A stretch of 64,000 nt of DNA from Acidobacteriaceae bacterium (GCA_003170825.1 PMYL01000015.1:74-64073); one strand, 5' to 3'. Shown: positions 40,458-57,946, counted from the stretch's first letter. Translations and numbers: made by a program. Notes: generated by a model not told the origin, from the sequence alone.

Positions 40458-40856
40458 GATTCGCCCCTTGCGTCCATCACCGCCACCGGCCCGGTTATTT
40501 CTTTAGCGAATCCGACGCTGCACCTCCCACGCCCCGCGCTGGCGGCCCCTGGAGGGTGTATACGCCCTGCTTCACTCCGGGAAACCGCCCGTAAACATCC
40601 GTGTACACCGGACGGGGACAGCACGCCGTAAACTGCCCAAATTGAGGCAGTTTGGGGCCTCCGGCGATTTGGTCTGACAATTGCTATAAAGATCGAGTCC
40701 CCTAAATTCTAGGGGGGAAGGAGCATGGGTATGCACTCGTTCGCCTGGTGGCCAACGCTCATCGTACTAGCCGTGGCGACCTTCACGGATCTGCGCAGCC
40801 GCCGCATCCCAAACTGGCTGGTGCTTCCTTTCCTTCTGGCGGGAATTGCGGTTTCC
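40458..40856 (+). repeat. ~400-bp duplicated block (upstream region + 5' end of prepilin peptidase), copy 1
   Basis: Aligns nearly base-for-base with 49861..50252. Confidence 0.93.
40670..40684 (+). promoter_or_regulatory. Sigma54-like promoter of cpaA
   Basis: TGGTCT-GACAA-TTGC (GG-N10-GC); the same spacing is kept in copy 2 (TGGCTG-GACAA-TTGC). Confidence 0.55.
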
Positions 40857-41273
40857 CCTTGGCGTCAGAACTGGCCCGGCATCGGTCGTGGCTTGGGCTG
40901 GCACGGCATCGGCCAAAGCTTGGCCGGTCTGGGACTTGGCATCCTGATCTACGGTTTTTTGTTCTGGATGGGCGGCATGGGGGCAGGGGACGTGAAGCTG
41001 TGTGCCGCGATCGGGGCCTGGATTGGCCCGGGTCAATTGTTGATCGCATTGGTCATCGCCGGCATGGCCGGGGGAATCATGGTTCTGTGCTGGGCCGCCT
41101 TTGGCGGATTTTTCAAGGAACTGTTTACGGGCGCGGGCGATCTGGTATTCGGTTGGAAGGAGCGCGGATTGCAACGCGATCCGGATCTGGTTTTGACCAA
41201 TCCCCTGAAACGCAAAATGCCCTACGCTCCGGCCATCGCCATTGGAACACTGATTTCCTTTTTTTCTCATTGA
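40725..41273 (+). CDS. cpaA: Prepilin peptidase CpaA/TadV (A24 family)
   Basis: FTDLRSRRIPNWL, GGMGAGDVKL and MPYAPAIAIG; AAGGAG RBS. Confidence 0.92.
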   Translation: MGMHSFAWWPTLIVLAVATFTDLRSRRIPNWLVLPFLLAGIAVSPWRQNWPGIGRGLGWHGIGQSLAGLGLGILIYGFLFWMGGMGAGDVKLCAAIGAWIGPGQLLIALVIAGMAGGIMVLCWAAFGGFFKELFTGAGDLVFGWKERGLQRDPDLVLTNPLKRKMPYAPAIAIGTLISFFSH

Positions 41274-41396: not shown

Positions 41397-44300
41397 ATGA
41401 TGAATTATCAATCTCAGGTTAACCCGCAAGGCCAGTTCCATGCAGCAGGGAGGACCAATTCCGTGAATACAGACTCTTCCCAATATCTCGATGCCCAATT
41501 TCCCGACTCCTTTGGCGCCGCTCGTCTATCGATTGCGGTGATCGGCCCTGACGAAAGTCTCCGCAACGCGGTAGCGAAGGCTTTTGCCGAATGCCAGCAA
41601 GGGGGCGATGTCCGGGAATTCGCATCCTACCCGCCCGGCCTGGACGATGTGCCAAGGTTGCTCGAGCAGCGTTACGACGTTATCGTCATCGATCTGGACA
41701 GCAATCCCGAATACGCCCTTGAACTGGTGGAGAGCATCGGCGCCAACGGCGTAGCGACCGTGATGGTCTATTCGGCGAAGGCCGATCCGGACCTGCTGGT
41801 ACGCTGCATGCGAGCGGGCGCTCGCGAGTTTCTGACTCAGCCCTTCGCCCTAAACACCATGGCCGAGGCCATGGTCCGGGCAGCGGCCCGCCGTCCGGCA
41901 AATCACCCCCTGAAGAAGGCAGGCGGCAGGTTGCTCGTATTTTTCGGCGCCAAGGGCGGCGCCGGTGTCACCACCATCGCCTGCAATTTTGCGGTAGCGC
42001 TGGCTCAGGACCCTTCCCAAAGCACCCTGTTGCTCGATCTCGATCTGCCGCTGGGAGACGCCGCGCTCAACCTCGGGCTGGTCGCGGAATACTCGACAGT
42101 CAACGCTCTTCAGGAGTCCGGCCGGCTGGATTCGAGTTTTCTCTCCAAGCTTCTGATCAAGCATAGTTCGGGGCTATACGTGCTCGCGGCTCCGGGTAAA
42201 TTGCCGCAGTACCAGGCCTCCGATGAGTCCATCGACAGGCTGCTGACAGTTGCGCGCCAGGACTTCGATAACGTGGTGATCGATATGGGATCGAGGCTTG
42301 ATTTAATGGGTACGGCTCTCTTCAAAGAAGCGAAGACGATCTACCTGGTAACACAGGCCGGCATCCCCGAACTGCGCAACTCAAATCGCCTGATCAGCCA
42401 GTTCTTCAGCGCGGGCGACCCCAAACTCGAAATCGTGATCAACCGATATCAGCTTCGCGCCCTGGGAGTGGATGACGAACATATTACGAAGGCTCTCACC
42501 AGGCCGGCGCAGTGGAAAATTCCCAACGATTATGACGCTGTGCGGCAGATGCAGAACACCGCTACCCCGCTGGTGCTGGAAGATTCGCCCATTTCACGGC
42601 TGATCCGGGAGATGGCCGGCTCCGTTACCGGGCAGCCCGTACCCCAGGGAAAAAAGAAAGGTTTCAGTTTTAGAAGTCTTGGCAGGAAGAGCGCCGCCGC
42701 CGAGGAGCCGCTGAGCATTACACCACGATCGACACCTGGACCGGTTCACGGCGGCGCCACGCTAGGCGCGACTCAACCTGACGCCAGGGCGAACACCCCG
42801 GAACCGTTGGTCCATACTCCTCCCGCGGGCACGGTGCCTTCGTCTGGACCGCGGACGTTCTTAAGTACATCCACGCCAACGGAGACCGCAGACCGCGCTG
42901 ACCGCGCGGACACGAAGCAGGAGGCATTGCCAAGCGGCAGCACCCCCAATCGGCAGAGCGAACCTGCAACGCGCATTTACAAAGGCGTTACCTATGTAAA
43001 GGGAGCGGACGGCCAATGGCACCAGCAGGCAACTGAGACCCATGTCGTGACTCAGGAGACGCCGACCATCGCATGGTCGACGCCCGATCCGATTACCTAC
43101 GGCACCGCGCTCAGCGACACTCAGCTCAATGCCACGGCATCGGTTGAGGGAAAATTCGTCTACGCTCCTGCCGTAGGGTACGTGTTCCCGGCGGGAACGC
43201 ATACGCTCTGGGTAATCTTCACTCCGGCGGACACTACGAAGTACACCACGGCACAGGCCGACGCGTCGCTCGCTGTCACCAAGGCGACGCCGACCGTCAC
43301 ATGGCCGAAGCCCTTTTCGATTCCTTACGGCACCGCGCTCAGCGCCACGCAGCTCAATGCCAGGGCATCGGTTCCGGGAACATTCGCCTACACTCCCGCC
43401 GCAGGCACCGTGCTTACAGCAGGGATCCAGACGCTCTCGGCAACCTTCACTCCGGCGGTCGCCACGAACTACACCCCGGCGGAAGCCGAAGCGCAGCTCA
43501 CTGTCACCAAGTCGGCGCCGGCCATCACATGGCCGACGCCCGCTCCGATTGCCTACGGCACTGCGCTCAGCGACGCTCAGCTCAATGCCACGGCATCGGT
43601 TGAGGGAAGATTCGTCTACATTCCCGCCGCAGGCGCCGTGCTCGCGGCGGGAACGCATACGCCCTCGGTAACCTTCACTCCGGCGGACGCCACGAACCAC
43701 ACCACGGCACAGGCCGCCGTGTCGCTCACTGTCACCAAGGCGACGCCGACCATTACATGGCCGACGCCCGATCCGATTGCCTACGGCACCGCGCTCAGCG
43801 CCACTCAGCTCAATGCCAGGGCATCGGTTGAGGGAAGATTCGCCTACACTCCCGCCGCAGGCGCCGTGCTTACAGCGGGAACACAGACGCTTACGGCAAC
43901 CTTCACTCCGACGGACGCCGCGGACTGCACCACGGCGCAGGCCGCCGTGTCGCTCACTGTCACCAAGGCGACGCCAACCATTATCGCGTGGCCGACACCC
44001 CATGACATTTCCTACGGCTCCGCGCTCAGCGCCGCTCAGCTCAATGCCACAGCGCCGGTTCCGGGAACGTTCGCCTACACGCCCGCCGCAGGCGATGTGC
44101 TCGCGGCGGGAACGCATACGCTCTCGGTAACCTTTACTCCAGCGGACTCCAACCTCCCCACGGCGCAGGGCACCGTGTCGCTCACTGTCACCAAGGCGAC
44201 GCCAACCATCACGTGGCCGACACCCCATGACATTTCCTACGGCACAGCGCTCAGCGCCGCGCAGCTCAATGTCACGGCATCGATTCCGGGAACGTTCGCC

Positions 44301-44879
44301 TACACTCCCGCCGCAGGCGACGTGCTTACAGCGGGAACACAAATGCTCTCGGCAACCTTCACTCCGACGGACACCACGAAGTACACCACGGCGGAGGCCG
44401 CCGTGTCGCTCACTGTCACCAAGGCGACGCCGACCATCACATGGCTGACGCCCGATCCGATTGCCTACGGCTCCGCGCTCAGCGCCGCTCAGCTCAATGC
44501 CAGGGCATCGGTTCCGGGAACATTCGCCTACACTCCCGCCGCAGGCACCGTGCTTACAGCGGGAACGCAGACGCTCTCGGCTACCTTCAATCCGACGGAC
44601 ACCGCGGACTACACGACGGCGCAAGCCACTGTGTCGCTTGTGGTGGATGAGTTGCCCAACCTCGCTTCGGTCACGCTGGCAGCGGTCGATGCGGATGCTG
44701 AAGATCTATTTCAGCCGTTTCAGACCGATGGCGACAATAAGAGAGGTCAGAAGAGCAGGATCGAGAGCAAGACCCCACAAAGCGGCAAAACCCCCAACCA
44801 GCAGGGCGAACCTGAAACGCGCGCTTACAAAGGCGCTACGTATGTGAAAGGAGCCGATGGCCAATGGCACCTACAGTAA
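41397..44879 (+). CDS. CpaE/TadZ-like ATPase fused to seven Ig-like (MBG-type) repeats
   Basis: N-terminal ~430 aa is paralogous to 33958..35154 (GAKGGAGVTT, IPELRNS, KIPNDY), followed by seven ~76-aa TKATPTITW..YGTALS..QLNA repeats in one open frame. Confidence 0.88.
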   Translation: MMNYQSQVNPQGQFHAAGRTNSVNTDSSQYLDAQFPDSFGAARLSIAVIGPDESLRNAVAKAFAECQQGGDVREFASYPPGLDDVPRLLEQRYDVIVIDLDSNPEYALELVESIGANGVATVMVYSAKADPDLLVRCMRAGAREFLTQPFALNTMAEAMVRAAARRPANHPLKKAGGRLLVFFGAKGGAGVTTIACNFAVALAQDPSQSTLLLDLDLPLGDAALNLGLVAEYSTVNALQESGRLDSSFLSKLLIKHSSGLYVLAAPGKLPQYQASDESIDRLLTVARQDFDNVVIDMGSRLDLMGTALFKEAKTIYLVTQAGIPELRNSNRLISQFFSAGDPKLEIVINRYQLRALGVDDEHITKALTRPAQWKIPNDYDAVRQMQNTATPLVLEDSPISRLIREMAGSVTGQPVPQGKKKGFSFRSLGRKSAAAEEPLSITPRSTPGPVHGGATLGATQPDARANTPEPLVHTPPAGTVPSSGPRTFLSTSTPTETADRADRADTKQEALPSGSTPNRQSEPATRIYKGVTYVKGADGQWHQQATETHVVTQETPTIAWSTPDPITYGTALSDTQLNATASVEGKFVYAPAVGYVFPAGTHTLWVIFTPADTTKYTTAQADASLAVTKATPTVTWPKPFSIPYGTALSATQLNARASVPGTFAYTPAAGTVLTAGIQTLSATFTPAVATNYTPAEAEAQLTVTKSAPAITWPTPAPIAYGTALSDAQLNATASVEGRFVYIPAAGAVLAAGTHTPSVTFTPADATNHTTAQAAVSLTVTKATPTITWPTPDPIAYGTALSATQLNARASVEGRFAYTPAAGAVLTAGTQTLTATFTPTDAADCTTAQAAVSLTVTKATPTIIAWPTPHDISYGSALSAAQLNATAPVPGTFAYTPAAGDVLAAGTHTLSVTFTPADSNLPTAQGTVSLTVTKATPTITWPTPHDISYGTALSAAQLNVTASIPGTFAYTPAAGDVLTAGTQMLSATFTPTDTTKYTTAEAAVSLTVTKATPTITWLTPDPIAYGSALSAAQLNARASVPGTFAYTPAAGTVLTAGTQTLSATFNPTDTADYTTAQATVSLVVDELPNLASVTLAAVDADAEDLFQPFQTDGDNKRGQKSRIESKTPQSGKTPNQQGEPETRAYKGATYVKGADGQWHLQ
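43053..44645 (+). repeat. Seven tandem ~228-bp coding repeats (Ig-like domains)
   Basis: Recurrent tacggcaccgcgctcagcg...cagctcaatgcca...cactcccgccgcagg units. Confidence 0.93.
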
Positions 44880-45877
44880 AAATAGAGGGGAAGCAACCCG
44901 CGACACTCCCCGCGGATTTCGGTGCGTGGGATAGTGGAGAACATCCCGAGACACTACCTGACAACTTCGACGACTTCGATGCTGTCCCGAAGCCGCCTAC
45001 GAAGCCTACGAAGCCTACGAAGCCTGCGACGGCGCAAGCCACCGTGTCGCATGTTGTGGAAGGTCAGAAACGCAGGGTCGAGGGCAGGATCGAGGGCAAG
45101 AGCGAGGGCAAGATCGAGGGCAGGAGCGAGGGCAAGAGCGAGGGCAAGAGCAAGAATAAGATGATGGTGACGTTTGTCTCCATCGGTGCGGTTCTGCTCA
45201 TCCTCATCCCGCTGGGCTATTTTAAGTTGCTGCCCAAGCTGGCCAAGCAGGGGCAGTCGGTAGTGCCGCAGCCGACGACGACGTCGCTGACGCCGACGCA
45301 GACGACGTCGCTGACGCCGACGACCAAGCCGAAGCCGGCGCCGACGCCGCTGACGGAGACGCCGGAGGCAGTACCCACGCCTCGCGTGCAGTCGGAGATG
45401 ATGAACAATCAGCTGAATGCGCCCACGCGGATTTCGCACGATATTAAGACGATGTCCGAGAAGGACGCGCCGCCCTCATCGGGCTTTGGCGCGACCGGCA
45501 TGGAAGGCCTGAGCGGCAATTCGGGCGGCGCGGTTGGCAGCGTATTCAGTGGAAAGACCGGGCCTAGGGTGACGGCGGAGGTTTCCAAGGCGCTCAACGT
45601 TTCCGGCGGCGTCATGGCGGGCAGGGTGATTGCGAAAACTTCGCCTGTTTATCCGCCCCTCGCCCGTACTGCGCGCGTAGCCGGCACGGTGGTTTTGCAT
45701 GCCACCATTTCCAAGGCGGGGACGATCGCAAATGTCAACGTAGTGAGTGGGCCGGCCATGTTGCGCCAGGCCGCTCTCGATGCCGTGAAGACCTGGCGCT
45801 ACAGGCCCTACCTGCTCAACAACGAGCCCGTGGAAGTGGAGACCACGGTGAATGTGATTTTCGCCTTGGGTGGATGA
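44864..45877 (+). CDS. TonB family protein within the tad operon
   Basis: One TM helix, Pro/Thr-rich linker and a TonB C-terminal domain (PVYPPLARTARVAGTVVLHATI..AALDAVKTWRYRPYLLNNEPVEVETTVNVIF). Confidence 0.85.
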   Translation: MAPTVKIEGKQPATLPADFGAWDSGEHPETLPDNFDDFDAVPKPPTKPTKPTKPATAQATVSHVVEGQKRRVEGRIEGKSEGKIEGRSEGKSEGKSKNKMMVTFVSIGAVLLILIPLGYFKLLPKLAKQGQSVVPQPTTTSLTPTQTTSLTPTTKPKPAPTPLTETPEAVPTPRVQSEMMNNQLNAPTRISHDIKTMSEKDAPPSSGFGATGMEGLSGNSGGAVGSVFSGKTGPRVTAEVSKALNVSGGVMAGRVIAKTSPVYPPLARTARVAGTVVLHATISKAGTIANVNVVSGPAMLRQAALDAVKTWRYRPYLLNNEPVEVETTVNVIFALGG

Positions 45878-45972: not shown

Positions 45973-47253
<1,281 letters not shown>

Positions 47254-47281
47254 GTAGAAAGGGGAAGGGGGATCAATAGAT

Positions 47282-48256
47282 ATGGGACCGATCATGATTG
47301 TGGTATTCCTGGGCGTGTTCGCGTTCGTCGCTCTTCTGATGGTCGCCAGCGGGGCTGGCGCCGCTGAGCAGGCCAAACATGTTCTCGCTTCGCTGGACTC
47401 GGCCCTGGCCACCGAAAGCGCGGAAGCGCGCGATCAAATCCTCAATCTTCGCAAGAGCGATTCGTTCAGCGCCATCCCCTGGCTCAATCTAAGGCTGCGG
47501 AAGCTCCAACTGGGGCCGCTGCTGCACAACCTGCTGAGTCAGGCAAATCTCAAGTGGACCGCGGGAGGCATGCTTGCCATGTCCGCGGTCGGCTTTATAT
47601 TCTCGGCCTATCTGGTTTACTGGTACTTCGGCAGATCCATACTCCTGGCTCTTATTGCCGGGTTGCTGCTGGGCTTCGCGCCTTTGGGCTGGGCGCTCCA
47701 TAAGCGAAGTAAACGCTTCAACAAGTTTCAGGAGGGGTTGCCGGAAGCGCTCGATCTGATGGTAAGCGCCCTCCGCGCCGGGCATAGTCTCATCGCCGCA
47801 ATGGGTTTAGTGGCTCGTGAGTGCAGCGACCCGGTCGGCCCCGAATTCAAGGCATGTTTCGAGGAGCAGAACTACGGCCTTGAACTGAAGACGGCTATCG
47901 ACAACATGATCAACCGCGTTCCGCTGCAAGATCTCAGAATTGTCTCAACCGCGATCATGATCCAAAAAGAGAGCGGAGGAAACCTTGCCGAGGTGCTCGA
48001 CAAGACCGCTCATGTAATTCGGGAGCGGTTCCGGCTGAAGCGGCAGGTCGGGGTCCACACAGCTCAGGGGCGCTTGACAGGGTGGGTCCTCACCCTTCTC
48101 CCTATCGTACTGGGAGTCGCTCTATACTTCGTCAACCCCACAATGATGAGCATTTTGTGGACGAATCCGATCGGCATCAAGCTCCTCTGGATAGCTAGCA
48201 TCATGATCGTGATTGGCGGTTTGATCATTCGCAAAATTGTCAACATAGATATTTGA
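47282..48256 (+). CDS. tadB: Flp pilus assembly protein TadB
   Basis: LPEALDLMVSALRAGHSL, IQKESGGNLAEVL and TAQGRLTG. Confidence 0.93.
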   Translation: MGPIMIVVFLGVFAFVALLMVASGAGAAEQAKHVLASLDSALATESAEARDQILNLRKSDSFSAIPWLNLRLRKLQLGPLLHNLLSQANLKWTAGGMLAMSAVGFIFSAYLVYWYFGRSILLALIAGLLLGFAPLGWALHKRSKRFNKFQEGLPEALDLMVSALRAGHSLIAAMGLVARECSDPVGPEFKACFEEQNYGLELKTAIDNMINRVPLQDLRIVSTAIMIQKESGGNLAEVLDKTAHVIRERFRLKRQVGVHTAQGRLTGWVLTLLPIVLGVALYFVNPTMMSILWTNPIGIKLLWIASIMIVIGGLIIRKIVNIDI

Positions 48257-48265
48257 AGGGGACTT

Positions 48266-49180
48266 ATGGGATTTGCGATTTCTGCTTTTGTTGTCGTTTT
48301 TCTGTTGATCGCGAGCGGTGGACTGCTGCTGTTCTATCGCGAAGCGATGCTTCAGCGGATCTCCGAGGTGATCAACCCGCAGGCCAAGCAGCAGCGGACC
48401 CTGTTGAGCACCATCCAACAGACAGGGCTTTCCATTAGCGGCGTGGTGGAACACTTCGAGAATATCCTGCCGAAAAGCCAGGCGGAAGTCTCCGTGGTCA
48501 AGCAGCGCCTCATCCGCGCCGGCTATCGCCGGGACACTGCGATCAAGATATTCTATGGCTCCAAGGTATTGGTTCCCCTGCTGCTCTGCGTTGTGGCTGG
48601 GGTCAGCGGACTCGGGAACATTGGCGGGTTTTTCGTGTATATCGCAGCCCTGGGTTTTGGATTCCTGGCGCCGGATTTCTGGCTGGGGCGGCGGATTACC
48701 GTCCGCCAACGCCGTATTCGGCGCGGCCTTCCAGACGCGCTTGATCTTCTTGTCATCTGCATCGAGGCCGGACTGAGCCTGGACCAGGGGACGGCACGCA
48801 CCGCGCAGGAATTGAGCAAAGCGCAGCCGGAGTTGAGCGATGAATTGACCATCGTCGTGCTGGAGCAACGCGCCGGACGGCCTCGTGCCGATACCTGGAA
48901 ACATTGGGCGGACCGCACCGGCGTGGATGCTGTGCGCAATCTCGTCTCCATGCTGGTTCAATCGGAACAGTTTGGAACCAGCATCGCCAAGACATTACGC
49001 GTTCATTCCGACACCCTCAGGACCCAGCGTGTGCAGCATGTGGAGGAGATGGCGGCGAAGAGCACCATCAAGCTGATCTTCCCGCTTGTTCTTTTCATCT
49101 TTCCCGCGCTTTTCGTGGTTGTTATGGGTCCTGCGGTCATCATGATCATCGAATCGTTCAAATCGTCGTTTGGCAATTGA
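48266..49180 (+). CDS. tadC: Flp pilus assembly protein TadC
   Basis: LPDALDLLVICIEAGLSLD, QSEQFGTSI and KLIFPLVLFIFPALFVV. Confidence 0.93.
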   Translation: MGFAISAFVVVFLLIASGGLLLFYREAMLQRISEVINPQAKQQRTLLSTIQQTGLSISGVVEHFENILPKSQAEVSVVKQRLIRAGYRRDTAIKIFYGSKVLVPLLLCVVAGVSGLGNIGGFFVYIAALGFGFLAPDFWLGRRITVRQRRIRRGLPDALDLLVICIEAGLSLDQGTARTAQELSKAQPELSDELTIVVLEQRAGRPRADTWKHWADRTGVDAVRNLVSMLVQSEQFGTSIAKTLRVHSDTLRTQRVQHVEEMAAKSTIKLIFPLVLFIFPALFVVVMGPAVIMIIESFKSSFGN

Positions 49181-50284: not shown

Positions 50285-50343
50285 CAATGGTGACTACGGA
50301 ACAACGCCCGGTTGCCGGGTACTCGCCGAGGGCGGGAGGTTAC

Positions 50344-51464: not shown

Positions 51465-52067
51465 ATGAAAAACCCAAACGGCCTGCGCGGTCAAGCCATG
51501 GTGATCATGCGCGGTTTGAAGCGCGCCGCGGTGTCAAAGAGTGAACATGCAGAGGCCCGGTTCCCGGGCGGCCGGCTTCGCGCCCTGCGTCATTCCGGCG
51601 AAGAGGGACAATCGGCGGTTGAGTTCGCCTTGATGTTGCCGATGATGATGGTGATCATCACGGGCATATTGATCTTCGGTATCTACGAGATGCAAATACT
51701 GGCCCTGGTCGAAGGCGTGTCCAACGCCGGGCGGGTTCTTGCGGTCAGCGGGGGGCAGGTTTTGGATCCGTGCGCCACGGGAGTAACGGCGGTCACAGGT
51801 GCCGCGGCGGTGCTTAATTCGGCGAACCTCACGTACATTTTTACCTTCAACCCAGTCGCTGGCAATCTTCCCGCCAACAACCATTCGTACCCTCAAGCGT
51901 CGTGCCTCAGCTCCAATATCACCTCCCCGCCGTCAAGTTATATGATGACGGGTGGAACCGTCACGGTGCAGGCAACCTTTAATGCTTGTAGTCTCCAGTT
52001 CTACGGCAACAACCTTGCACCTGGCGGCTGTTCAATTACTCAGTCAATCACGGAGGTAGTCCAATGA
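51465..52067 (+). CDS. tadE: TadE-like pseudopilin
   Basis: EEGQSAVEFALMLP prepilin cleavage motif (G/Q..E+5) followed by a hydrophobic helix. Confidence 0.88.
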   Translation: MKNPNGLRGQAMVIMRGLKRAAVSKSEHAEARFPGGRLRALRHSGEEGQSAVEFALMLPMMMVIITGILIFGIYEMQILALVEGVSNAGRVLAVSGGQVLDPCATGVTAVTGAAAVLNSANLTYIFTFNPVAGNLPANNHSYPQASCLSSNITSPPSSYMMTGGTVTVQATFNACSLQFYGNNLAPGGCSITQSITEVVQ

Positions 52068-53620
52068 AGCACAGCAGCGAGTCTTTTCTGCGCCGTGCAC
52101 TCAAGTGCCAGAGCGGGCAGGCGTACATATCCCTGATTCTCATTATTCCCTTGATTTTAGGCGTGGGCGGATTGTCAGTGGACGTCGGCCACGCCTACGC
52201 ATGCTATCGCCAACTGCAGGCTTCCACCGATGCGGCTGCGCTGGCCGCAGGCCTGGGCCTGCCCAGTGGTGCCACAGTAGCGGAAAGCGATGCGACAGCG
52301 TTGAGCTCTGTATCCGGAAACGACAACGCCTTTGCCAGCTTGAATACCCCCTCCGCCTATACCGGCGCGCACTTATCATTCCAGCCGTATTGCGTGTCGA
52401 CCGTGCCGGGCGTGCCGCCGTGTGGCGGCTCCCTTACCTACAATGCCATCCGGGTGACGCAGTCCGTCACCGTGCCCACGTACTTCATCCGTGCTCTAGA
52501 AGTCATCGGCATCCAATCTGCCCAGTCCATCACGCTCAACGCCCAGGCAACCGCGGTCGTGACCGGTGGGGCGAGAGAACCAGACAGCGTCGCGATCATC
52601 TTCGACACAACCAGTTCGATGACGAGCACCGACGGCGGCGCCAACTGCACCGGCTCAAAGGAGCAATGTTCACTGGCAGGCGCTCAGATTATGATGTCCG
52701 AATTCTCGCCCTGCACATGGGGCGAGACCAACTGCGGCGCGGCTACCAACGGACTCGTCACCAACTCATTCGATGAGATCAGCTTCTTTACGTTTCCCGC
52801 GCAGAGTCCTGGCACTCAGGCGACCAAAGACTATGTCTGCCCCTCGGGGGTCCCCACTGAAATTGCATACCCCGATTCGACGACTTATACATCTTCGCCT
52901 CTCACCGCGCCTCTGACTTCGACTAAGCTGGCTTATCTGGTGAGCCGCTATCAGGTTGTGCCCCTATCCAGCGATTACCGCGTCAGCGACGGCACCATCG
53001 CGCCGAGCCCGTTGAACCTCAGTTCCAACATCGTGAAGGCGGTCGGGGGGAACAGCTATTGGGGGGGGACCACCAATAGTTGTAACGGCATGCAGGCCAA
53101 TGGCGGCGAGGGAACCTACTATGCGGGAGCAATCTATACGGCGAATCAGTATCTCATGGCCAATACGAGGGCGAACACCAATAACATCATCATCCTCTTC
53201 AGCGATGGCGATGCGGAGGGGTCAGGCACCGGGAATATCTCCACTTTTAGTGGCGGAACGCTGAATACGTCGTCGCCCTACAATTACCCTTCGGCCAAGG
53301 CCGAGTGCAATCAGGCGGTCGCAACGGCCGCGGCAGCCAAGGCCAACGGCACGGAAATCTTCGTGGTGGGCTACGGCGTGGCATCCGGAGGATGCGGCGA
53401 CACCGGGGAAAGCTCAGGAACCACCGCATGCTCCACGCTGAAGGCGATTGCCTCCCCCGACACGAAGACGCCGCATTTCTATGAGGACTCGTCGAGTACA
53501 CCCTGCGCCGGTGCTACAACGGTCTTAATGAACGGAAAGACCAACACCATTTCCGGAATCTTCTCACAGATCGTTAACTATTTATCGAAACCGAAGTTGG
53601 TTCTCAACGGCGCAGCATAG
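52064..53620 (+). CDS. tadG: TadG-like pilus-associated protein with VWA-like domain
   Basis: SGQAYISL..LGVGGLSVDVGHAY...LQASTDAAALAA Tad N-terminus; IIFDTTSSM and LFSDGDA MIDAS-like motifs. Confidence 0.82.
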   Translation: MKHSSESFLRRALKCQSGQAYISLILIIPLILGVGGLSVDVGHAYACYRQLQASTDAAALAAGLGLPSGATVAESDATALSSVSGNDNAFASLNTPSAYTGAHLSFQPYCVSTVPGVPPCGGSLTYNAIRVTQSVTVPTYFIRALEVIGIQSAQSITLNAQATAVVTGGAREPDSVAIIFDTTSSMTSTDGGANCTGSKEQCSLAGAQIMMSEFSPCTWGETNCGAATNGLVTNSFDEISFFTFPAQSPGTQATKDYVCPSGVPTEIAYPDSTTYTSSPLTAPLTSTKLAYLVSRYQVVPLSSDYRVSDGTIAPSPLNLSSNIVKAVGGNSYWGGTTNSCNGMQANGGEGTYYAGAIYTANQYLMANTRANTNNIIILFSDGDAEGSGTGNISTFSGGTLNTSSPYNYPSAKAECNQAVATAAAAKANGTEIFVVGYGVASGGCGDTGESSGTTACSTLKAIASPDTKTPHFYEDSSSTPCAGATTVLMNGKTNTISGIFSQIVNYLSKPKLVLNGAA

Positions 53621-53648
53621 CCGTCCGCAGGAGAATCAAGTTCCGCTA

Positions 53649-53687
53649 CCCGGCGAGTCCGTCCATTGGACTCGCCGGGAGTTTTTT
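53649..53687 (+). terminator. Intrinsic terminator after tadG
   Basis: 12-bp perfect stem cccggcgagtcc/ggactcgccggg followed by agtttttt. Confidence 0.85.
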
Positions 53688-55131
53688 ATTCGTCCTCTTC
53701 CGGAACAATCAGCAGCACTTCCACCTTGACATTTTGCCCATTCTGCGTGGCGGGCCTGAATTGCCACTGTGCGAGCGCGTCCAGGACGAACTTCGCCTGC
53801 GGGAAGTCGGGCGGGAAGACGATGGCCAGCGCCTCGAAGCGGCCGGCCTGATTCAGAAACCCGTGAACCATGAGGGCATCGGCGTTCCATTCGCCGGGAG
53901 CAAGATTGGGGCGCACGATGTTATACGGCCAGGGCGCATCCAGGCGAGCGATGTTGCCCGCCTCCGCCGCATCGGCGGAACGCGGGACAGAGTACTGGAG
54001 AATCCAGCTCTTGGCCAGGCCGAGGTGCAGATAAACGGTGTAGGCCAGCCTGCCGCTCCATAGCCCGGCCGTCTCAGGATACTTGTCTTCCAGCGAGACG
54101 CCCACCACAACCGACCCGAACTGGCCGTCTTTCGCCAGCGTAATATGGGAGGTCGAAGGCCGGTTACCGGAGCCGGAACCGGAGCCGGAGCCTGCTTCAG
54201 CCTTCTGGGCAGGCCCGGTTTTCGCTCCACCTCCGGCCCGATCGCCAGTGCTCCCTCCGGATGCCGGCTGGTCTTTCGAATCGCCCGCAGCCTGTCCCGC
54301 TCCCGTTCCGCCGGCCTTGCTGGCCGGATTGCCGTTCCCCGGCCGCGAAGAGTCCTTACCCTGTCCCTGCGCCAGCGCCCCTGGCGAATTTGCGGCAGCC
54401 GTCGCGTTTGCGGGCGGTAGAAAGACGGTTCCCGCGGTCATATGAAGATCGGAGAGCGACACAACGGCGGTGGGAGTTGACTGCGCGGACGACACCGAGG
54501 TGGTTTCCGGAATCTTCTGCGGCAAATCAGGCCCGTGAACCACCATTGGCGAGGTTGTGCTGGGGAGGATCGGCAGTTTCTGCGCGGTCAGGCCGGTGGC
54601 TGATATGCGAACGTCAGCCAGGTTGACTTCCTGATTGGGTGCCTCAAACTTGGGCAGCACTGAGGCGGCCATGGGTGTTTCCGGTGGGGGCGGAACGATC
54701 GCTTTGGGCGGCGTCTTCTCCGGCTGCCAAAGCACGACGGTCGGGACCGGGGTTTTCAGGAGGAGTTTCACGTTGGGCTGCACCTTCGGCTGCACCAGCG
54801 TCTGGAGTCCCTCCGGCGCTTGCGCAGTCTGCCGCAGAACCGCTAATGGGCTCCCGCCGGGTAAAGGCTTGTGCGCGACGTTCCGGGGGCCAGGAGACTT
54901 AATAGCGCTGGCGGTAGCCCGCCGCATCTCCTCGTCCGGGGCGTTCAGGTCCAGATGCCGCAGTTCATATCGCGCGGTGAGAACCCGGTTGTTCAACACC
55001 GGGGGGCTCAGTATCCCGAGAACTACCACAATCAGGGCAATATGCGCCAGAATCGAGACCGCAAAGGAAGATGACCGCCGGCTCAGATCCGGTCGCTCGG
55101 AAAAGAGCGTTATCGTGCGGGAAGACCTCAT
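53686..55131 (-). CDS. Hypothetical single-TM Pro/Gly-rich protein with TonB-C-like terminus
   Basis: SILAHIALIVVVLG TM helix, long Pro-rich linker and C-terminal ALAQWQFRPATQNGQNVKVEVLLIVP. Confidence 0.75.
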   Translation of the reverse strand: MRSSRTITLFSERPDLSRRSSSFAVSILAHIALIVVVLGILSPPVLNNRVLTARYELRHLDLNAPDEEMRRATASAIKSPGPRNVAHKPLPGGSPLAVLRQTAQAPEGLQTLVQPKVQPNVKLLLKTPVPTVVLWQPEKTPPKAIVPPPPETPMAASVLPKFEAPNQEVNLADVRISATGLTAQKLPILPSTTSPMVVHGPDLPQKIPETTSVSSAQSTPTAVVSLSDLHMTAGTVFLPPANATAAANSPGALAQGQGKDSSRPGNGNPASKAGGTGAGQAAGDSKDQPASGGSTGDRAGGGAKTGPAQKAEAGSGSGSGSGNRPSTSHITLAKDGQFGSVVVGVSLEDKYPETAGLWSGRLAYTVYLHLGLAKSWILQYSVPRSADAAEAGNIARLDAPWPYNIVRPNLAPGEWNADALMVHGFLNQAGRFEALAIVFPPDFPQAKFVLDALAQWQFRPATQNGQNVKVEVLLIVPEEDE

Positions 55132-55523
55132 GACCGGATGAACTCCCTCCCTCGCGCCGGATGGTCCTTCTTTACTTTACAGGGTTGGTCACATTTTATA
55201 CACTCTGAGGTGAGCCGGACAGTGAAAGATGCCATGTCCCCCTTTGGTAATCATTTGTGCTGTCTTTCGGGATCGGTTGCGGCAGGGATGCCCCATGACT
55301 TTCTTGATGCCCCAACTTCATACCACTGCCGTTTCGACTGAATTTAGTTGGCATCAGGGGAAAAGAGTGTACACTGATCACACGCTTGAACTTGTCTGAC
55401 TTTCTGTCACCGCCATCCCCAGGGTTTGGCGCGAAATCGAAACTCGTTTCCTTGGGCACAGCAATTGACCCAAGGGACAGCAAGGCGGAGCTGGCGGGGT
55501 AGCCGGCTCACACAGGTTTCCAA

Positions 55524-56396
55524 ATGAACCGAAGACTACTGACGATCCTTCTCCTCGCTTTCGTGATTGCCGGCGTATGCGCCTTTCTGGTCTATCGCAT
55601 GGTAGGCATCCGCTTGTCGGCGGCACAACCGTCAGCAACCATACACGTGGTTGCCGCAAACGCGGACATCAAACTCGGAGCCGTTCTGAACGCCGGCAAC
55701 CTGACGACTATCGAGATCGCGGGGGCGCTTCCCAAAGGCGCTATTCTCGAGAAAGACAAGATCAATGCCATTGGCCGGGGCGTCCTCTCGGACCTCTATC
55801 AGGGCGAGCCCATTCTGGAGAGCCGCCTGGCCGCCCCCGGCTCCGGCGGCGGGTTGGCAGCTACCATTCCCGAGGGCATGAGAGCGGCCGCTATCAGGGT
55901 CGATGATGTGGTGGGCGTGGCGGGGTTTGTCACTCCCGGAATGCGCGTGGACGTTCTTATCGCGGGGCTCCCTCCCGGCAATGCTTCCAACAACGCCCAG
56001 ATCGCCGATCAAGGCACTCTGGTGAAGACGCTGCTTCAGAACATCCAGGTCTTGTCGGCCGGCCAGGATATTCAAAAGGATGCTGAAGGCAAGCCGCATC
56101 CGGTCCAGGTAGTCAACCTGTTGGTGACCCCGGAACAGGCCGAGACCCTGAGCCTGGCCAGCAATCAGACAAGGATCCAACTGGTGCTGCGGAACCCGTT
56201 GGATACAAAGATTGGCGTGGTTCCAGTCACGGCCATGGCCAACCTCTTTACGGATCAGGCTCCCGCCCCGGTAAAAGCGCGGCCTGCCGCAAAGGCCGTT
56301 TTCAAAGCCGCACCACCTCCGGCCTTTACCATCGAGGTAATCAACGGGTCGAAACGGAGCGAGAAACAATTTAGTACTCCCGAGGGACAGAAGTGA
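55524..56396 (+). CDS. cpaB: Flp pilus assembly protein CpaB/RcpC
   Basis: VVAANADI..G (SAF), IPEGMRA..RVDDVVGVAGFVTPGMRVDVL, LQNIQVLSAGQ and LVLRNPLD. Confidence 0.93.
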   Translation: MNRRLLTILLLAFVIAGVCAFLVYRMVGIRLSAAQPSATIHVVAANADIKLGAVLNAGNLTTIEIAGALPKGAILEKDKINAIGRGVLSDLYQGEPILESRLAAPGSGGGLAATIPEGMRAAAIRVDDVVGVAGFVTPGMRVDVLIAGLPPGNASNNAQIADQGTLVKTLLQNIQVLSAGQDIQKDAEGKPHPVQVVNLLVTPEQAETLSLASNQTRIQLVLRNPLDTKIGVVPVTAMANLFTDQAPAPVKARPAAKAVFKAAPPPAFTIEVINGSKRSEKQFSTPEGQK

Positions 56397-57946
56397 GAGC
56401 AAAGGCTGGAAAACCCATCGCATGTATTGGCGCATTGTTTTTTGTCCTGTGCGCCGAGCCGGGCCTGCAGGCTCAGAGTTCACCATCTCTTTCCCAACCC
56501 GCCGGGGCCTCGATTCAAGACTCCGCGAATGAACTCTCCGTCGCTGTGGGCAAGACCGTATTGGTCGACACTGCGCGGCCGATAGCGCGGGTCGCCCTCG
56601 GCCTGGCGGAAGTGGCCGATGCCGAACCGACCAGCCCAACCGAGATCATGGTGACTGGCAAAACCCCTGGGGAAACCAGTCTGATTATCTGGGATACCCG
56701 CGGCGGCCGGCAGTTCTTCAACGTGACGGTGCGCGCCAGCTCGGCTGTATCGAACGACAACCTGGACGCGATCCGCCGCGAGATCAGAACGGAGCTTCCC
56801 GGCGAACCCGTGAAGGTCAGCACCGAGAACGGCATCATCTTCCTGCGCGGCACGGTCAAGAACCTCAACAGCTCCGATCGCGCGGTCAAGATTGCCTCCA
56901 CTGGCGGTAAGGTCGTCAACCTGCTCAACGTCAATGTGCCACCCCCAGACCCGCAGATTCTCCTCAAGGTGCGTTTTGCCAGTGTCGACCTCAGCAAGGA
57001 GCAACAGCTCGGCATCAATTTTTACAGTTCCGGCTTTGGAAACACGATTGCCGGAATTTCAACCGGACAGTTCTCTCCGCCATCGCCGACCCTCACAACA
57101 CCCTCCACGGTGAATCAAACTAGTAATCTGAACCTCTTTGCTTTCTTGCCCGGCCTGAATCTGGGCGCAACCCTCGAGGCCCTGCAACAAAAAGGCATCA
57201 CCGAGGTTCTGGCTGAGCCCAACATCCTGGCGTCGAACGGCAAACAGGCCAGCTTTCTGGCCGGCGGAGAATATCCCTTTCCAATGGTTCAGGGCGGCTC
57301 GGGCGGTGCGGGAGCGTCGGTTACGATCATGTTCAAGGAATATGGAGTTCGCCTGAACTTCATCGCCACCGTAACTCCCCGCGGAACGATCCGCCTCCAA
57401 GTGGCCCCGGAAGTCAGTTCGCTAGACTTTACCCAGGGAATTGAGATCTCGGGATTTGATGTCCCCTCCATTAACACCCGGAGAATGAAGACCGAGGTCG
57501 AATTGGCTGACGGTCAAAGCTTTGGGATCGGTGGACTGTTGGACAACCGCGACACCGAAACCTTCATGAAGATCCCGTTCCTGGGAGACATTCCAATTCT
57601 GGGCAAGCTTTTCCAGTCGATGCAAAAGACCAAGACAAAGACGGAACTCATCGTGATTGTGACGCCGGAGATTGTGGCTCCCATTGAGGCCGGGGCGCCC
57701 TTGCCTGAGCTGAAGTATCCCGGGAAGTTCCTGCCGCCCAACTCCGGCATACCCATGAATACTCCGGACGCCAAGACGGCTGCTAACACGCTACCCCCAG
57801 TACCGCCAACCATGCCCGTGGAGAAATTGATTGACAGTATGAAGCCGGAGCAGCCGCTGATGGTCGAAGGAGGCAGCGCGACTTTTGGTGGCGGCGGCTC
57901 GACGAGCGGCACTGCCGCACCTGCTTCCACGCCCGTGCCTTACTGA
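56393..57946 (+). CDS. cpaC: Flp pilus secretin CpaC/RcpA
   Basis: T2SS-T3SS_pil_N-like and BON-like N-terminus; QILLKVRFASV, LAEPNI..SFLAGGEYP, FKEYGVRL and IPFLGDIPILGKLF..TELIVIVTP. Confidence 0.93.
   Translation: MRAKAGKPIACIGALFFVLCAEPGLQAQSSPSLSQPAGASIQDSANELSVAVGKTVLVDTARPIARVALGLAEVADAEPTSPTEIMVTGKTPGETSLIIWDTRGGRQFFNVTVRASSAVSNDNLDAIRREIRTELPGEPVKVSTENGIIFLRGTVKNLNSSDRAVKIASTGGKVVNLLNVNVPPPDPQILLKVRFASVDLSKEQQLGINFYSSGFGNTIAGISTGQFSPPSPTLTTPSTVNQTSNLNLFAFLPGLNLGATLEALQQKGITEVLAEPNILASNGKQASFLAGGEYPFPMVQGGSGGAGASVTIMFKEYGVRLNFIATVTPRGTIRLQVAPEVSSLDFTQGIEISGFDVPSINTRRMKTEVELADGQSFGIGGLLDNRDTETFMKIPFLGDIPILGKLFQSMQKTKTKTELIVIVTPEIVAPIEAGAPLPELKYPGKFLPPNSGIPMNTPDAKTAANTLPPVPPTMPVEKLIDSMKPEQPLMVEGGSATFGGGGSTSGTAAPASTPVPY

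What the first reader, a model, noticed from the sequence alone, without database searches (positions are those of the whole stretch)
41397..44879. Cytoplasmic CpaE ATPase fused to seven adhesin-type Ig-like repeats
Seen: one uninterrupted frame with receiver-like and MinD-like domains, a Pro/Thr linker and seven ~76-aa beta-rich repeats; there is no signal peptide or TM segment. Established: CpaE/TadZ is a cytoplasmic polar-localisation factor, while such TPTITW..YGTALS..QLNA repeats normally occur in secreted surface proteins. This is a topological paradox. Inference: a cytoplasmic ruler or scaffold, a Tad-exported adhesin, or a processed polyprotein.
Basis: partly seen in the sequence, partly recalled or inferred. 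Interest (0 to 1): 0.72.

Follow-up and report, generated by a model that had tools for sequence, protein, structure and literature searches.

The report
Pilus ATPase with cytoplasmic Ig-repeat arm
A pilus-positioning ATPase (CpaE/TadZ) in peat-soil Acidobacteria really does carry seven Ig-like repeats, and comparison with relatives indicates the repeats sit inside the cell as an arm that probably links the pilus machine to a TonB-like membrane protein encoded by the next gene.

Summary
Window 41397-44879 is one open 1160-aa frame: CpaE/TadZ core, disordered linker, seven 76-aa Ig-like repeats, and no signal peptide or TM segment. It is not an assembly artefact. Contigs from four independent metagenome runs and from metatranscriptomes span both junctions, and about 45 Terracidiphilus/Acidobacteriaceae genome loci encode the same architecture in the same Tad locus.

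A novel ~25-aa three-stranded mini-domain ('KG motif', ETRxYKGATYVKGADGQWHLQ) flanks the Ig array. The extension was only ever seen together with a downstream, overlapping gene for a TonB-like bitopic protein whose cytoplasmic N-terminus carries an invariant TLPADFxEWD motif; the four plain-CpaE loci examined lack both.

Natural single-chain relatives settle the topology. One is CpaE ATPase-Ig x~14-single TM-TonB_C, and another family is REC-KG-LPxDF-TM-TonB_C, so the Ig array lies on the ATPase (cytoplasmic) side. A PP2C phosphatase family uses the same Ig-KG module and partner.

Best reading: a cytoplasmic Ig arm that tethers the membrane-bound CpaE ring to a trans-envelope TonB-like protein. 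KG-LPxDF binding and the physiological role are inferred. I rate it a new variant of a known kind, with moderately high interest.

The parts
41397..44879 (+). Whole ORF, 1160 aa: CpaE/TadZ core, linker, KG1, seven Ig repeats, linker, KG2, stop
   Evidence: Open frame. Junctions confirmed in DNA and RNA contigs. About 45 full-length orthologues.
41529..41891 (+). Receiver-like (REC) domain, aa ~45-165
   Evidence: Pfam Response_reg at aa 50-158. AlphaFold2 alternating strand/helix fold. Foldseek match to the two-domain protein 3fkq.
41922..42641 (+). MinD/ParA-type ATPase domain, aa ~176-415, Walker A variant GAKGGAGVTT
   Evidence: Pfam AAA_31/CbiA and NCBIfam MinD/CpaE hits. Foldseek 3ea0 TMt 0.85, plus MinD and FlhG. 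dN/dS 0.15.
42651..42689 (+). KKKGFSFRSLGRK (aa 419-431): retained C-terminal motif of plain CpaE, resembling the MinD membrane-targeting sequence
   Evidence: 85 of 104 plain orthologues have a KKKGFxLF-type motif within ~15 residues of their C-terminus. E. coli MinD's membrane-targeting sequence is KGFLKRLFGG (PMC5471200). Caulobacter CpaE is membrane-bound through a C-terminal amphipathic helix (PMC13170226). AlphaFold2 does not model a helix here.
42690..42956 (+). Disordered Pro/Thr/Ser/Ala-rich linker, aa 432-520
   Evidence: pLDDT below 30. dN/dS 0.5-0.8.
42957..43034 (+). KG motif copy 1 (EPATRIYKGVTYVKGADGQWHQQ), aa ~521-546
   Evidence: Internal duplicate of the C-terminal motif. Three short beta strands at 525-543. 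Present in orthologues, sometimes doubled.
43050..44648 (+). Seven tandem 76-aa Ig-like (HYDIN/ASH-type) repeats, aa 552-1084
   Evidence: Tandem Repeats Finder 228 bp x 7.0. Pfam Ig_CFAP65_4th 5e-19. AlphaFold2 pLDDT 80-90. dN/dS 0.30-0.54.
44649..44804 (+). Post-array segment beginning VVDELPNLASV, then disordered, aa 1085-1136
   Evidence: The 'VEGLPNxxSL' cap is shared by CpaE and PP2C fusions. pLDDT below 50.
44805..44876 (+). KG motif copy 2 at the extreme C-terminus (EPETRAYKGATYVKGADGQWHLQ)
   Evidence: Three-stranded mini-sheet, pLDDT ~80 with an alignment and 84-87 without one. dN/dS 0.12-0.29. C-terminal in nearly all orthologues.
44864..45877 (+). Partner gene, 337 aa: TonB-like bitopic protein that overlaps the fusion's stop by 16 nt. 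Cytoplasmic N-region with LPADFGAWD (44906-44932) and LPDNFDDFD (44954-44980), TM at ~45161-45223, Pro/Thr spacer, TonB_C at 45641-45868
   Evidence: Pfam TonB_C 2e-18. TM hydropathy 2.41, with the motif invariant at 54 loci. Absent from the four plain-CpaE loci examined. Start ATG lies in the Q-W codons of KG2.
40725..41273 (+). Prepilin peptidase (CpaA, Peptidase_A24), directly upstream
   Evidence: Pfam 5e-20. Syntenic in the related loci.
45973..49180 (+). CpaF/TadA ATPase (45973-47253), TadB (47282-48256) and TadC (48266-49180)
   Evidence: Pfam T2SSE and T2SSF. Syntenic.
51465..57946 (+). Rest of the Tad cluster: TadE (51465-52067), TadG/VWA (52064-53620), RcpC/CpaB (55524-56396), secretin CpaC/RcpA (56393-57946)
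   Evidence: Pfam hits.

Best explanation
This is a genuine, conserved variant of the Tad-pilus organiser CpaE/TadZ. Its whole polypeptide, including the Ig array, stays in the cytoplasm.

Shown:
- The core is an orthologue (70-85% identity) of ordinary 430-aa CpaE proteins and keeps their terminal KKKGFxF motif.
- A cassette is added after that motif: disordered linker, KG mini-domain, 7-13 Ig-like domains, linker and a C-terminal KG mini-domain.
- The cassette also brings a second, translationally coupled gene. It encodes a bitopic protein with a cytoplasmic N-terminus carrying TLPADFxEWD, one TM, a Pro-rich spacer and a periplasmic TonB_C domain.
- The extension and the partner gene were only ever seen together.

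Inferred:
- CpaE forms a membrane-bound ring of dimers around the CpaF motor, as reported for Caulobacter. If so, each subunit projects a roughly 25-30 nm Ig arm under the inner membrane (my estimate from typical Ig-domain length).
- The KG mini-domain docks onto the LPxDFxWD motif of the TonB-like protein.
- The TonB-like protein reaches across the periplasm to the secretin or the cell wall. This would tether or brace the cytoplasmic part of the Tad machine to the envelope and may cluster machines, because both partners are multivalent.
For: - Real and expressed: identical DNA contigs from 4 runs and RNA contigs span both junctions.
- Conserved: 74 KG-bearing loci, nearly all in Terracidiphilus/Acidobacteriaceae. 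About 45 are full-length ORFs of 1108-1680 aa with 6-13 Ig repeats and a terminal KG, in the order peptidase, fusion, TonB-like, CpaF, TadB, TadC.
- Selection: dN/dS is 0.15 for the core, 0.30-0.54 for the Ig array and 0.12-0.29 for KG2.
- Cassette behaviour: the four plain-CpaE loci examined have the same gene order but no TonB-like gene.
- Cytoplasmic topology: P0258 has the ATPase at 30-236, ~14 Ig repeats, one TM at 1372-1403 and TonB_C at 1530-1604 in a single ORF. P0143 is Ig-TM-TonB_C. Leaderless PP2C-Ig x7-KG proteins exist.
- KG-LPxDF link, gene position: LP.[DN]F..[WF][DE] occurs 75 times in 1.83 million six-frame residues, and 71 of those lie directly after a KG-ORF end. The motif is present in the downstream gene at all 54 loci where it could be extracted.
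- KG-LPxDF link, other contexts: the PP2C-Ig-KG gene is followed by an overlapping LPGDFVEWDE-TM gene. Three distinct clusters (P0312, P0341, P0367) have KG and LPxDF about 10 residues apart in one chain before TM-TonB_C.
- KG is an autonomous fold: a three-stranded sheet at pLDDT 84-87 even without an alignment.
- Ring geometry and membrane helix of CpaE: PMC13170226.
- A TonB-like factor that binds a secretin has a precedent in ExeB (PMC4098917).
Against: - No direct evidence of KG-LPxDF binding. The only co-fold I could run (single sequence) gave pLDDT ~55 for the LPADF segment and no docking.
- Co-occurrence and gene fusion could reflect shared regulation or common descent rather than physical contact.
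- Hydropathy alone does not exclude unconventional export.
- The charge distribution around the partner's TM, judged by eye from the sequences, looks ambiguous. Topology therefore rests on homology to TonB and on the need for ATP by the ATPase.
- The partner lacks the TonB TM histidine, and no exbBD genes are in the locus. Its periplasmic target is unknown.
- AlphaFold2 does not model KKKGFSF as a helix.
- A second paralogue type has internal KG motifs and no partner gene downstream.
- The key single-chain relatives (P0258, P0312) lie outside Tad loci.
Confidence: 0.55

Rival explanations
1. The Ig array is cytoplasmic and functional, but it works independently of the TonB-like protein. For example, it could be a spacer, ruler or steric fence around the motor, or a scaffold whose KG motifs bind some other partner such as a polar landmark, the nucleoid or another Tad component. 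On this view the TonB-like gene is merely co-transcribed.
For: - KG motifs also occur internally and in proteins with no LPxDF partner nearby: the second paralogue type and P0336, P0382, P0387, P0265.
- Some of those paralogues end in a Lys/Ala/Pro-rich tail resembling histone H1, which hints at nucleic-acid or polyanion binding.
- P0258 links Ig to TonB_C with no KG at all.
Against: - The extension and the partner gene were only ever seen together.
- The same pairing recurs with PP2C.
- KG and LPxDF are adjacent in single-chain relatives.
- The start codon of the partner gene is embedded in KG2.
Confidence: 0.25
2. The Ig array is exported as an adhesin, either by the Tad machine or another leaderless route, or it is released from CpaE by proteolysis (a polyprotein).
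For: The same repeat type is abundant in proteins with signal peptides or lipoboxes (P0196, P0218, P0240). Its structural neighbours are surface Ig arrays such as S-layer protein and RTX adhesin repeats.
Against: - No signal peptide, TM or recognisable C-terminal sorting domain.
- In P0258 and P0143 the array precedes the only TM of a TonB-type protein.
- The array is fused to leaderless cytoplasmic enzymes of two unrelated families.
- The motif next to it in the partner protein lies on the N-terminal side of the TM.
Confidence: 0.07
3. The extension is a selectively neutral or decaying repeat insertion without function, or the fusion is an assembly or sequencing artefact.
For: - Repeats fragment short-read assemblies, and many database homologues are truncated at contig ends.
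- Linkers evolve nearly neutrally.
- Some relatives are frameshifted or degenerate (L075, P0065, P0091).
Against: - Both junctions are identical in independent DNA and RNA contigs.
- About 45 intact orthologous ORFs exist across species-level genomes, some on megabase-scale contigs.
- dN/dS is 0.3 on the array and 0.1-0.3 on KG2.
Confidence: 0.03

Closest known systems
CpaE/TadZ of Tad (type IVc) pilus systems (Caulobacter CpaE; Eubacterium rectale two-domain protein, PDB 3fkq)
   Same: Receiver-like domain plus MinD/ParA-type ATPase with a deviant Walker A. Encoded between the prepilin peptidase and CpaF. 70-85% identical to plain 430-aa CpaE orthologues. Keeps the basic-aromatic C-terminal motif.
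   Different: A 730-aa C-terminal extension (linker, KG, seven Ig repeats, KG) and an obligatory TonB-like partner gene. Neither was mentioned in the CpaE/TadZ papers found with the searches run here.
TadZA fusion ATPase of Bdellovibrio bacteriovorus (bioRxiv 10.64898/2026.07.08.737194)
   Same: A precedent that TadZ can be fused to another Tad-related module and then links the machine to another cellular system, in that case the polarity hub RomR.
   Different: There TadZ is fused to the TadA motor. Here CpaF stays separate, and the fusion partner is a non-enzymatic Ig array with short docking motifs.
GspA/GspB (ExeA/ExeB) assembly factors of type II secretion
   Same: A cytoplasmic-side ATPase works with a bitopic, Pro-rich, TonB-like protein whose periplasmic domain contacts the secretin (PMC4098917; PMC9239104). 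This is the closest functional analogy for 'ATPase plus TonB-like partner next to a secretin system'.
   Different: From memory, ExeA is an AAA+ protein with a peptidoglycan-binding domain, not a MinD-like ATPase. No GspB (T2SSB) Pfam match was found for the partner here. There is no Ig array or KG/LPxDF motif in GspAB. This is an analogy only.
TonB energy transducers
   Same: The partner has an N-in type architecture: one TM, a Pro/Thr-rich spacer and a C-terminal TonB_C domain (Pfam 2e-18).
   Different: It has a ~95-aa cytoplasmic N-extension carrying LPxDF motifs. Its TM has no histidine. No exbB/exbD genes were seen in the locus.
HYDIN/CFAP65/ASH-type Ig arrays of eukaryotic cilia, and bacterial surface Ig arrays (RTX adhesin extenders, S-layer proteins)
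   Same: Same Pfam clan hits and structural neighbours. Like HYDIN, this array would be intracellular.
   Different: In bacteria this repeat type is otherwise seen mainly in secreted proteins. No paper describing a cytoplasmic tandem array of seven or more such domains in bacteria was found.
MinD C-terminal membrane-targeting sequence
   Same: Plain orthologues end in KKKGF(S/K/N)LFG, compared with KGFLKRLFGG in E. coli MinD.
   Different: In the fusion the motif is internal (aa 419-431) and AlphaFold2 does not model it as a helix. Membrane binding is untested.

Membership tests
CpaE/TadZ (Tad pilus ParA/MinD-family organiser) | N-terminal receiver-like domain | tested here: met
   Pfam Response_reg at aa 50-158, 30.3 bits against a cut-off of 30.2. 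AlphaFold2 fold. Foldseek hit to 3fkq. Whether the domain is 'atypical' (not phosphorylated) was not tested.
CpaE/TadZ (Tad pilus ParA/MinD-family organiser) | [quoted passage not shown] | tested here: met
   GAKGGAGVTT at aa ~185-194. Pfam AAA_31/CbiA. Foldseek 3ea0 TMt 0.85, MinD 0.81. NCBIfam CpaE/MinD models match but score below their equivalog cut-offs.
CpaE/TadZ (Tad pilus ParA/MinD-family organiser) | Encoded in a Tad locus next to the prepilin peptidase and CpaF/TadA, and orthologous to recognised CpaE | tested here: met
   Neighbours identified. 70-85% identity to proteins that JGI names 'pilus assembly protein CpaE'.
CpaE/TadZ (Tad pilus ParA/MinD-family organiser) | ATP-dependent dimerisation, ring around CpaF, role in localising the machine | not testable with these tools
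   Known for Caulobacter (PMC13170226). Needs experiments here.
Secreted Ig-repeat adhesins / surface proteins | Export signal: N-terminal signal peptide or lipobox, or a recognised C-terminal sorting or secretion domain | tested here: not met
   Polar N-terminus, maximum hydropathy 1.43. No Pfam family in the C-terminal 75 aa even at E<=10. Secreted carriers of the same repeat do have leaders.
Secreted Ig-repeat adhesins / surface proteins | Tandem Ig-like beta-sandwich repeats | tested here: met
TonB family (for the partner gene 44864-45877) | C-terminal TonB_C domain preceded by a Pro-rich spacer and one TM | tested here: met
   Pfam TonB_C 2e-18 at aa 260-335. TM at aa ~100-120 with hydropathy 2.41. 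Sequence.
TonB family (for the partner gene 44864-45877) | TM helix with the conserved Ser/His pair, and coupling to ExbB/ExbD | tested here: not met
   The TM, MMVTFVSIGAVLLILIPLGYF, has no histidine. No ExbB/ExbD (MotA/TolQ) family was seen among the locus genes scanned. The rest of the genome is unseen.
GspA/GspB (ExeAB) secretin-assembly factors | GspB/T2SSB family domain in the bitopic partner; AAA+ ATPase with a peptidoglycan-binding domain in the other | tested here: not met
   Pfam finds only TonB_C in the partner and only MinD-type and REC domains in the ATPase. Resemblance is functional only.
WW / MORN / other known small beta-hairpin domains (for the KG motif) | Significant match by sequence profile or by structure | tested here: not met
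   No Pfam family at E<=10. Best Foldseek PDB match has E = 0.22.

The most novel reading that the evidence does not exclude
The KG mini-domain and the TLPxDFxWD peptide are a previously unrecognised cognate docking pair, derived from one chain that was split by gene fission. Together with a cytoplasmic Ig arm they form a portable tether that attaches cytoplasmic enzymes (the CpaE ring of the Tad motor, a PP2C phosphatase) to a TonB-like trans-envelope protein. For the Tad machine this would mean up to twelve ~25-30 nm 'outriggers' per motor, bracing it to the secretin or cell wall or clustering machines. No type IV filament system is known to have such an architecture.
Probability: 0.35. Interest if true: 0.78.

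Novelty: new variant of a known kind. Interest (0 to 1): 0.62.

Why it matters
[quoted passage not shown] How the cytoplasmic CpaE/TadZ ring is coupled to the rest of the envelope is still being worked out.
- This clade has added a long Ig arm and a TonB-like partner to CpaE. That offers a natural experiment on motor anchoring and positioning.
- It shows that an 'adhesin-type' Ig repeat can be used inside a bacterial cell. This cautions against inferring localisation from repeat type alone.
- It defines two new short sequence elements (the KG mini-domain and the LPxDFxWD motif) with a directly testable pairing.
- The organisms are abundant peat and permafrost Acidobacteria, and the gene is detected in metatranscriptomes from such soils.

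Tried and rejected
1. Mis-assembly, frameshift or stop between the parts: rejected by identical DNA and RNA contigs and by about 45 intact orthologues.
2. Programmed -1 frameshifting to fuse the protein to the TonB-like gene, which lies in the -1 frame with a 16-22 nt overlap: no in-frame X XXY YYZ heptamer in 58 loci. Instead there is a Shine-Dalgarno-like AAGGGAG, and the ATG sits inside the Q-W codons, which indicates translational coupling.
3. KG as a WW, MORN or other known domain: no Pfam hit at E<=10 and no significant Foldseek hit.
4. Sequence search of the Ig array against PDB chains: no hit at E<=0.01.
The single-sequence version ran but was inconclusive.
6. Profile search with the 45-aa LPxDF N-terminus against the 5.8-billion protein set: only 9 short fragments, uninformative.
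7. Repeat-by-repeat orthology: the diagonal is only weakly dominant against P0189, and within-protein identity (59-82%) is often higher than between orthologues. This suggests some homogenisation and was not used as evidence.
8. Correlation between the number of KG copies and the number of LPxDF copies: no simple positive relation on inspection.


Full report
**1. Observation.** Window 41397-44879 (+) is a single open frame of 1160 codons.
- Pfam finds a receiver domain (aa 50-158), a MinD/ParA-type ATPase (AAA_31/CbiA, aa 179-320) and repeated HYDIN/CFAP65/ASH-type Ig hits in the C-terminal half. NCBIfam MinD and CpaE models match but score below their equivalog cut-offs.
- Tandem Repeats Finder reports 7.0 copies of a 228-bp unit at 43054-44638, with 83% matches. 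The seven 76-aa units start at aa 552-1008.
- No 19-residue window exceeds Kyte-Doolittle 1.43 and the N-terminus is polar.
- AlphaFold2, run with a 53-sequence alignment, gives a folded core (45-415), a disordered linker (416-522), seven beta-sandwiches (553-1084, pLDDT 80-90), a second disordered stretch (1086-1138) and two small three-stranded sheets at 525-543 and 1141-1159.
- Foldseek matches the N-terminus to ParA/MinD ATPases (3ea0, TMt 0.85) and to 3fkq, the Eubacterium rectale two-domain protein. I recall 3fkq being the published TadZ structure, but I did not verify that here. The array matches generic multi-Ig proteins.

**2. Not an artefact.**
- At least 20 peat-metagenome runs hold the junction region.
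- Contigs from four of them cover 42366-43149 (ATPase end, linker, first repeat) and 44531-45300 (last repeat, stop, next gene) without a single difference.
- Metatranscriptome contigs cover 42493-43149 and 44531-45411, so the gene appears to be transcribed in situ. DNA carry-over in those libraries cannot be excluded.
- The interior of the array breaks into short contigs, as expected for repeats. The exact count of seven rests on the window assembly and on equal-length orthologues.

**3.
- A ~25-aa motif, (E)PETRxYKGATYVKGADGQWHLQ, which I call KG, occurs just before the first Ig repeat and again as the last residues of the protein.
- The core's C-terminal motif is retained. 85 of 104 plain 400-440-aa orthologues have a KKKGFxLF-type motif within about 15 residues of their C-terminus. 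That motif resembles the E. coli MinD membrane-targeting sequence KGFLKRLFGG (PMC5471200).
- The window protein keeps KKKGFSFRSLGRK at aa 419-431, and the extension begins directly after it.
- In Caulobacter, CpaE is modelled as six dimers around the CpaF hexamer, held at the inner membrane by a C-terminal amphipathic helix (PMC13170226).

The ORF sits in a complete Tad cluster:

| Gene | Window coordinates |
|---|---|
| Prepilin peptidase | 40725-41273 |
| The CpaE-Ig fusion | 41397-44879 |
| TonB_C protein | 44864-45877 |
| CpaF | 45973-47253 |
| TadB | 47282-48256 |
| TadC | 48266-49180 |
| TadE | 51465-52067 |
| TadG | 52064-53620 |
| RcpC/CpaB | 55524-56396 |
| Secretin | 56393-57946 |

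The TonB_C gene overlaps the fusion's stop by 16 nt. Its product has a ~95-aa N-terminal region with LPADFGAWD and LPDNFDDFD, one strong TM (hydropathy 2.41), a Pro/Thr spacer and TonB_C.

**5. Family.**
- Homologues of the N-terminal 440 aa are mostly plain 402-441-aa CpaE proteins at 70-85% identity. About a tenth are longer, and the longer ones carry the same linker, KG and Ig repeats, cut at contig ends.
- A scan of 185,579 species-representative genomes with the KG profile returned 74 loci, nearly all Terracidiphilus/Acidobacteriaceae MAGs.
- Almost every KG-bearing ORF is CpaE + KG (one or two copies) + 6-13 Ig repeats (mostly 8) + terminal KG. About 45 are complete ORFs of 1108-1680 aa, some on megabase-scale contigs.
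- The gene order peptidase, fusion, TonB-like, CpaF, TadB, TadC is conserved.
- At all 54 loci where the downstream gene could be extracted, it starts 16-22 nt before the fusion's stop and opens with M(V/A)PPEE...TLPADFxEWD.
- The four plain-CpaE loci examined have the same surrounding genes, but CpaF follows CpaE directly.
- So the extension and the TonB-like gene were only ever seen together, as a single cassette.

**6. Selection.** Against orthologues at 58-84% identity in the array, dN/dS is 0.15 for the core, 0.30-0.54 for the Ig array, 0.12-0.29 for KG2 and 0.5-1 for the linkers. KG2 overlaps the next gene's start, which also constrains it.

**7. Topology.**
- But P0258 is one intact 1606-aa ORF: CpaE ATPase (aa 30-236), the EKKKAFSLRNLGK motif, ~14 Ig repeats, a single TM (1372-1403, hydropathy 2.48), a Pro-rich spacer and TonB_C (1530-1604).
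- Its frameshifted twin L075/P0143 comes from another sample.
- With one TM, the ATPase and the Ig array are on the same side of the membrane. An ATP-dependent MinD-type ATPase and a periplasmic TonB_C domain fix that side as the cytoplasm.
- Independently, leaderless PP2C phosphatases carry Ig x7, the same 'VEGLPNVASL' cap and a terminal KG (P0232, P0233, P0236).

**8. The KG-LPxDF link.**
- The pattern LP.[DN]F..[WF][DE] occurs 75 times in 1.83 million six-frame residues of all the DNA held. 71 of these lie directly after a KG-ORF end. Of the other four, one follows the PP2C-Ig-KG gene, two are inside the P0091 fusion, and one lies on the minus strand of L030 with no KG ORF beside it.
- The PP2C-Ig-KG gene is followed by an overlapping gene that begins ...LPETLPGDFVEWDE and then has a TM.
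- An exhaustive search of 1.84 billion representatives found 132 KG-bearing clusters, mostly CpaE-Ig fusions or fragments.
- Three distinct clusters (P0312, P0341, P0367) encode a CpaE-type REC domain, a linker, KG, then TLPxDFxW(D/E) about 10 residues later, then TM and TonB_C, all in one chain. They sit in a conserved context outside any Tad locus.
- So KG and LPxDF are neighbours in single-chain relatives, exactly where the window's two genes abut.
- In the window family the partner's ATG lies in the invariant Q-W codons of KG2, with a Shine-Dalgarno-like AAGGGAG in the K-G-A codons. There is no slippery heptamer in any of 58 loci. This indicates translational coupling, not frameshifting.
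- KG folds as a three-stranded sheet at pLDDT 84-87 even without an alignment, but the single-sequence co-fold shows no confident docking.
- KG has no Pfam or PDB relative.

**9. Mechanism.**

Shown:
- a conserved, transcribed CpaE variant;
- a cytoplasmic placement of the Ig array, by gene-fusion logic;
- strict pairing with a TonB-like bitopic partner.

Inferred:
- The CpaE core binds the membrane and rings CpaF as in Caulobacter.
- Each subunit projects an Ig arm of seven domains. From typical Ig-domain lengths of about 3.5-4 nm, I estimate roughly 25-30 nm.
- KG docks on the partner's LPxDFxWD motif.
- The partner's TonB_C domain contacts the secretin or the cell wall. This parallels ExeB, which is TonB-like and Pro-rich and binds the secretin ExeD (PMC4098917).
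- Because both partners are multivalent (2-3 KG copies, 1-2 LPxDF copies), a lattice that clusters or braces machines is conceivable.

**10. Comparison and novelty.**
- The core passes the sequence and context tests for CpaE/TadZ.
- The partner is TonB-like but lacks the TM histidine, and no exbBD genes are in the locus.
- Membership of GspAB fails, so that comparison is only an analogy.
- TadZ fusions have a precedent in TadZA of Bdellovibrio.
- Searches of the held literature found nothing on a CpaE-Ig fusion, a TonB-like Tad component, or cytoplasmic tandem Ig arrays in bacteria.
- Source databases name these proteins only 'CpaE family ATPase', 'AAA family ATPase' or 'hypothetical protein'.
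- I rate it a new variant of a known kind.

**11. Limits.**
- All evidence is comparative or predicted. No binding, localisation or phenotype data exist.
- Nearly all genomes are MAGs.
- The co-fold test that would matter most, with a paired alignment, could not be run.

Noticed in passing
window 33958-35187 (-): A second, plain CpaE-like gene of 409 aa. It is 62% identical to the fusion's core and ends right at KKKGFSF. Plain and extended CpaE therefore coexist in one genome, about 6 kb apart on opposite strands, and mixed rings are conceivable.
   Followed up: partly
L006, L009, L013, L031, L035, L036, L041, L042, L070, L072: A second paralogue type in the same genomes: CpaE, KG, 2-5 Ig repeats, then a partial duplicate of the CpaE C-terminal half with its linker and KG. 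Some end in a long Lys/Ala/Pro-rich tail resembling histone H1. There is no TonB-like or CpaF gene downstream.
   Followed up: partly
L076 6001-9110 (P0236); also P0232, P0233, P0235: PP2C phosphatase fused to about 7 Ig repeats, the 'VEGLPNVASL' cap and a C-terminal KG motif. It is followed by an overlapping gene that starts ...LPETLPGDFVEWDE and then has a TM. The Ig-KG and LPxDF-TM pair is therefore reused outside Tad loci.
   Followed up: partly
L083 2336-4381 (P0341), L084 7001-8596 (P0312), P0367: A single-chain family: CpaE-type REC, KG, LPxDFxW(D/E), TM, TonB_C, with no ATPase and no Ig. In both loci examined (P0341, P0312) it sits beside DHDPS and acetyltransferase genes; P0367's context was not examined.
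   Followed up: partly
L082 2717-7537 (P0258); L075 5247-10462: A CpaE ATPase, ~14 Ig repeats, TM and TonB_C in one 1606-aa ORF with no KG motif, next to enolase and outside any Tad locus. The copy on the 618-kb contig (L075) is broken by several frameshifts, probably assembly errors.
   Followed up: yes
P0336, P0382, P0387 (C-terminal KG); P0265, P0266 (3-5 KG copies): The KG motif also ends several Gln-rich proteins with no Pfam match, and it is repeated inside two other proteins of unknown function. It is therefore an autonomous mini-domain found beyond CpaE.
   Followed up: no
window 44841-44879: The TonB-like gene's ATG lies inside the invariant Gln-Trp codons (CAA TGG) of KG2, with a Shine-Dalgarno-like AAGGGAG in the Lys-Gly-Ala codons in most of the 58 loci examined (AAAGGAG in the window). 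The same nucleotides thus encode a protein motif and a translation-initiation region.
   Followed up: yes
window 44995-45029, 45079-45151, 45276: Short tandem repeats (9 bp x 3.9; 12 bp x 6, encoding EGKS-type repeats) in the cytoplasmic N-region of the TonB-like protein. There is also a 24-bp insertion polymorphism at 45276, in its Pro/Thr spacer, present in two of the four runs.
   Followed up: no
window 53686-55131 (-) and 50263-51366 (+): Two genes without clear families inside the Tad cluster. The 481-aa protein has a weak C-terminal TonB_C hit (E = 0.021). The 367-aa protein has weak PilZ and DUF192 hits.
   Followed up: no
window 44649-44690 and the equivalent position in P0176, P0177, P0189, P0233, P0259: The segment just after the last Ig repeat (VVDELPNLASV, VEGLPNFESL, VEGLPDFDSL) is conserved in both CpaE and PP2C fusions. 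It loosely resembles the partner's LPxDF motif, so it could be an internal pseudo-ligand for KG. This is speculation.
   Followed up: no
L040 (labelled Methanosarcinaceae archaeon) and L074 (labelled Alphaproteobacteria): Contigs carrying Terracidiphilus-type Ig-KG and TonB-like genes are binned into unrelated MAGs. This is probably binning contamination.
   Followed up: no
window 1-34000 versus 34000-64000: GC skew is strongly positive (+0.12 to +0.30, apart from a dip between about 20 and 28 kb) and GC content is 0.59-0.66 (apart from 0.53 at 20-22 kb) over the first ~34 kb. Skew is near zero and GC content is 0.56-0.62 afterwards. A Tle1-like T6SS phospholipase gene (30162-31178, -) and recQ (31349-33544) lie near the change.
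   Followed up: no
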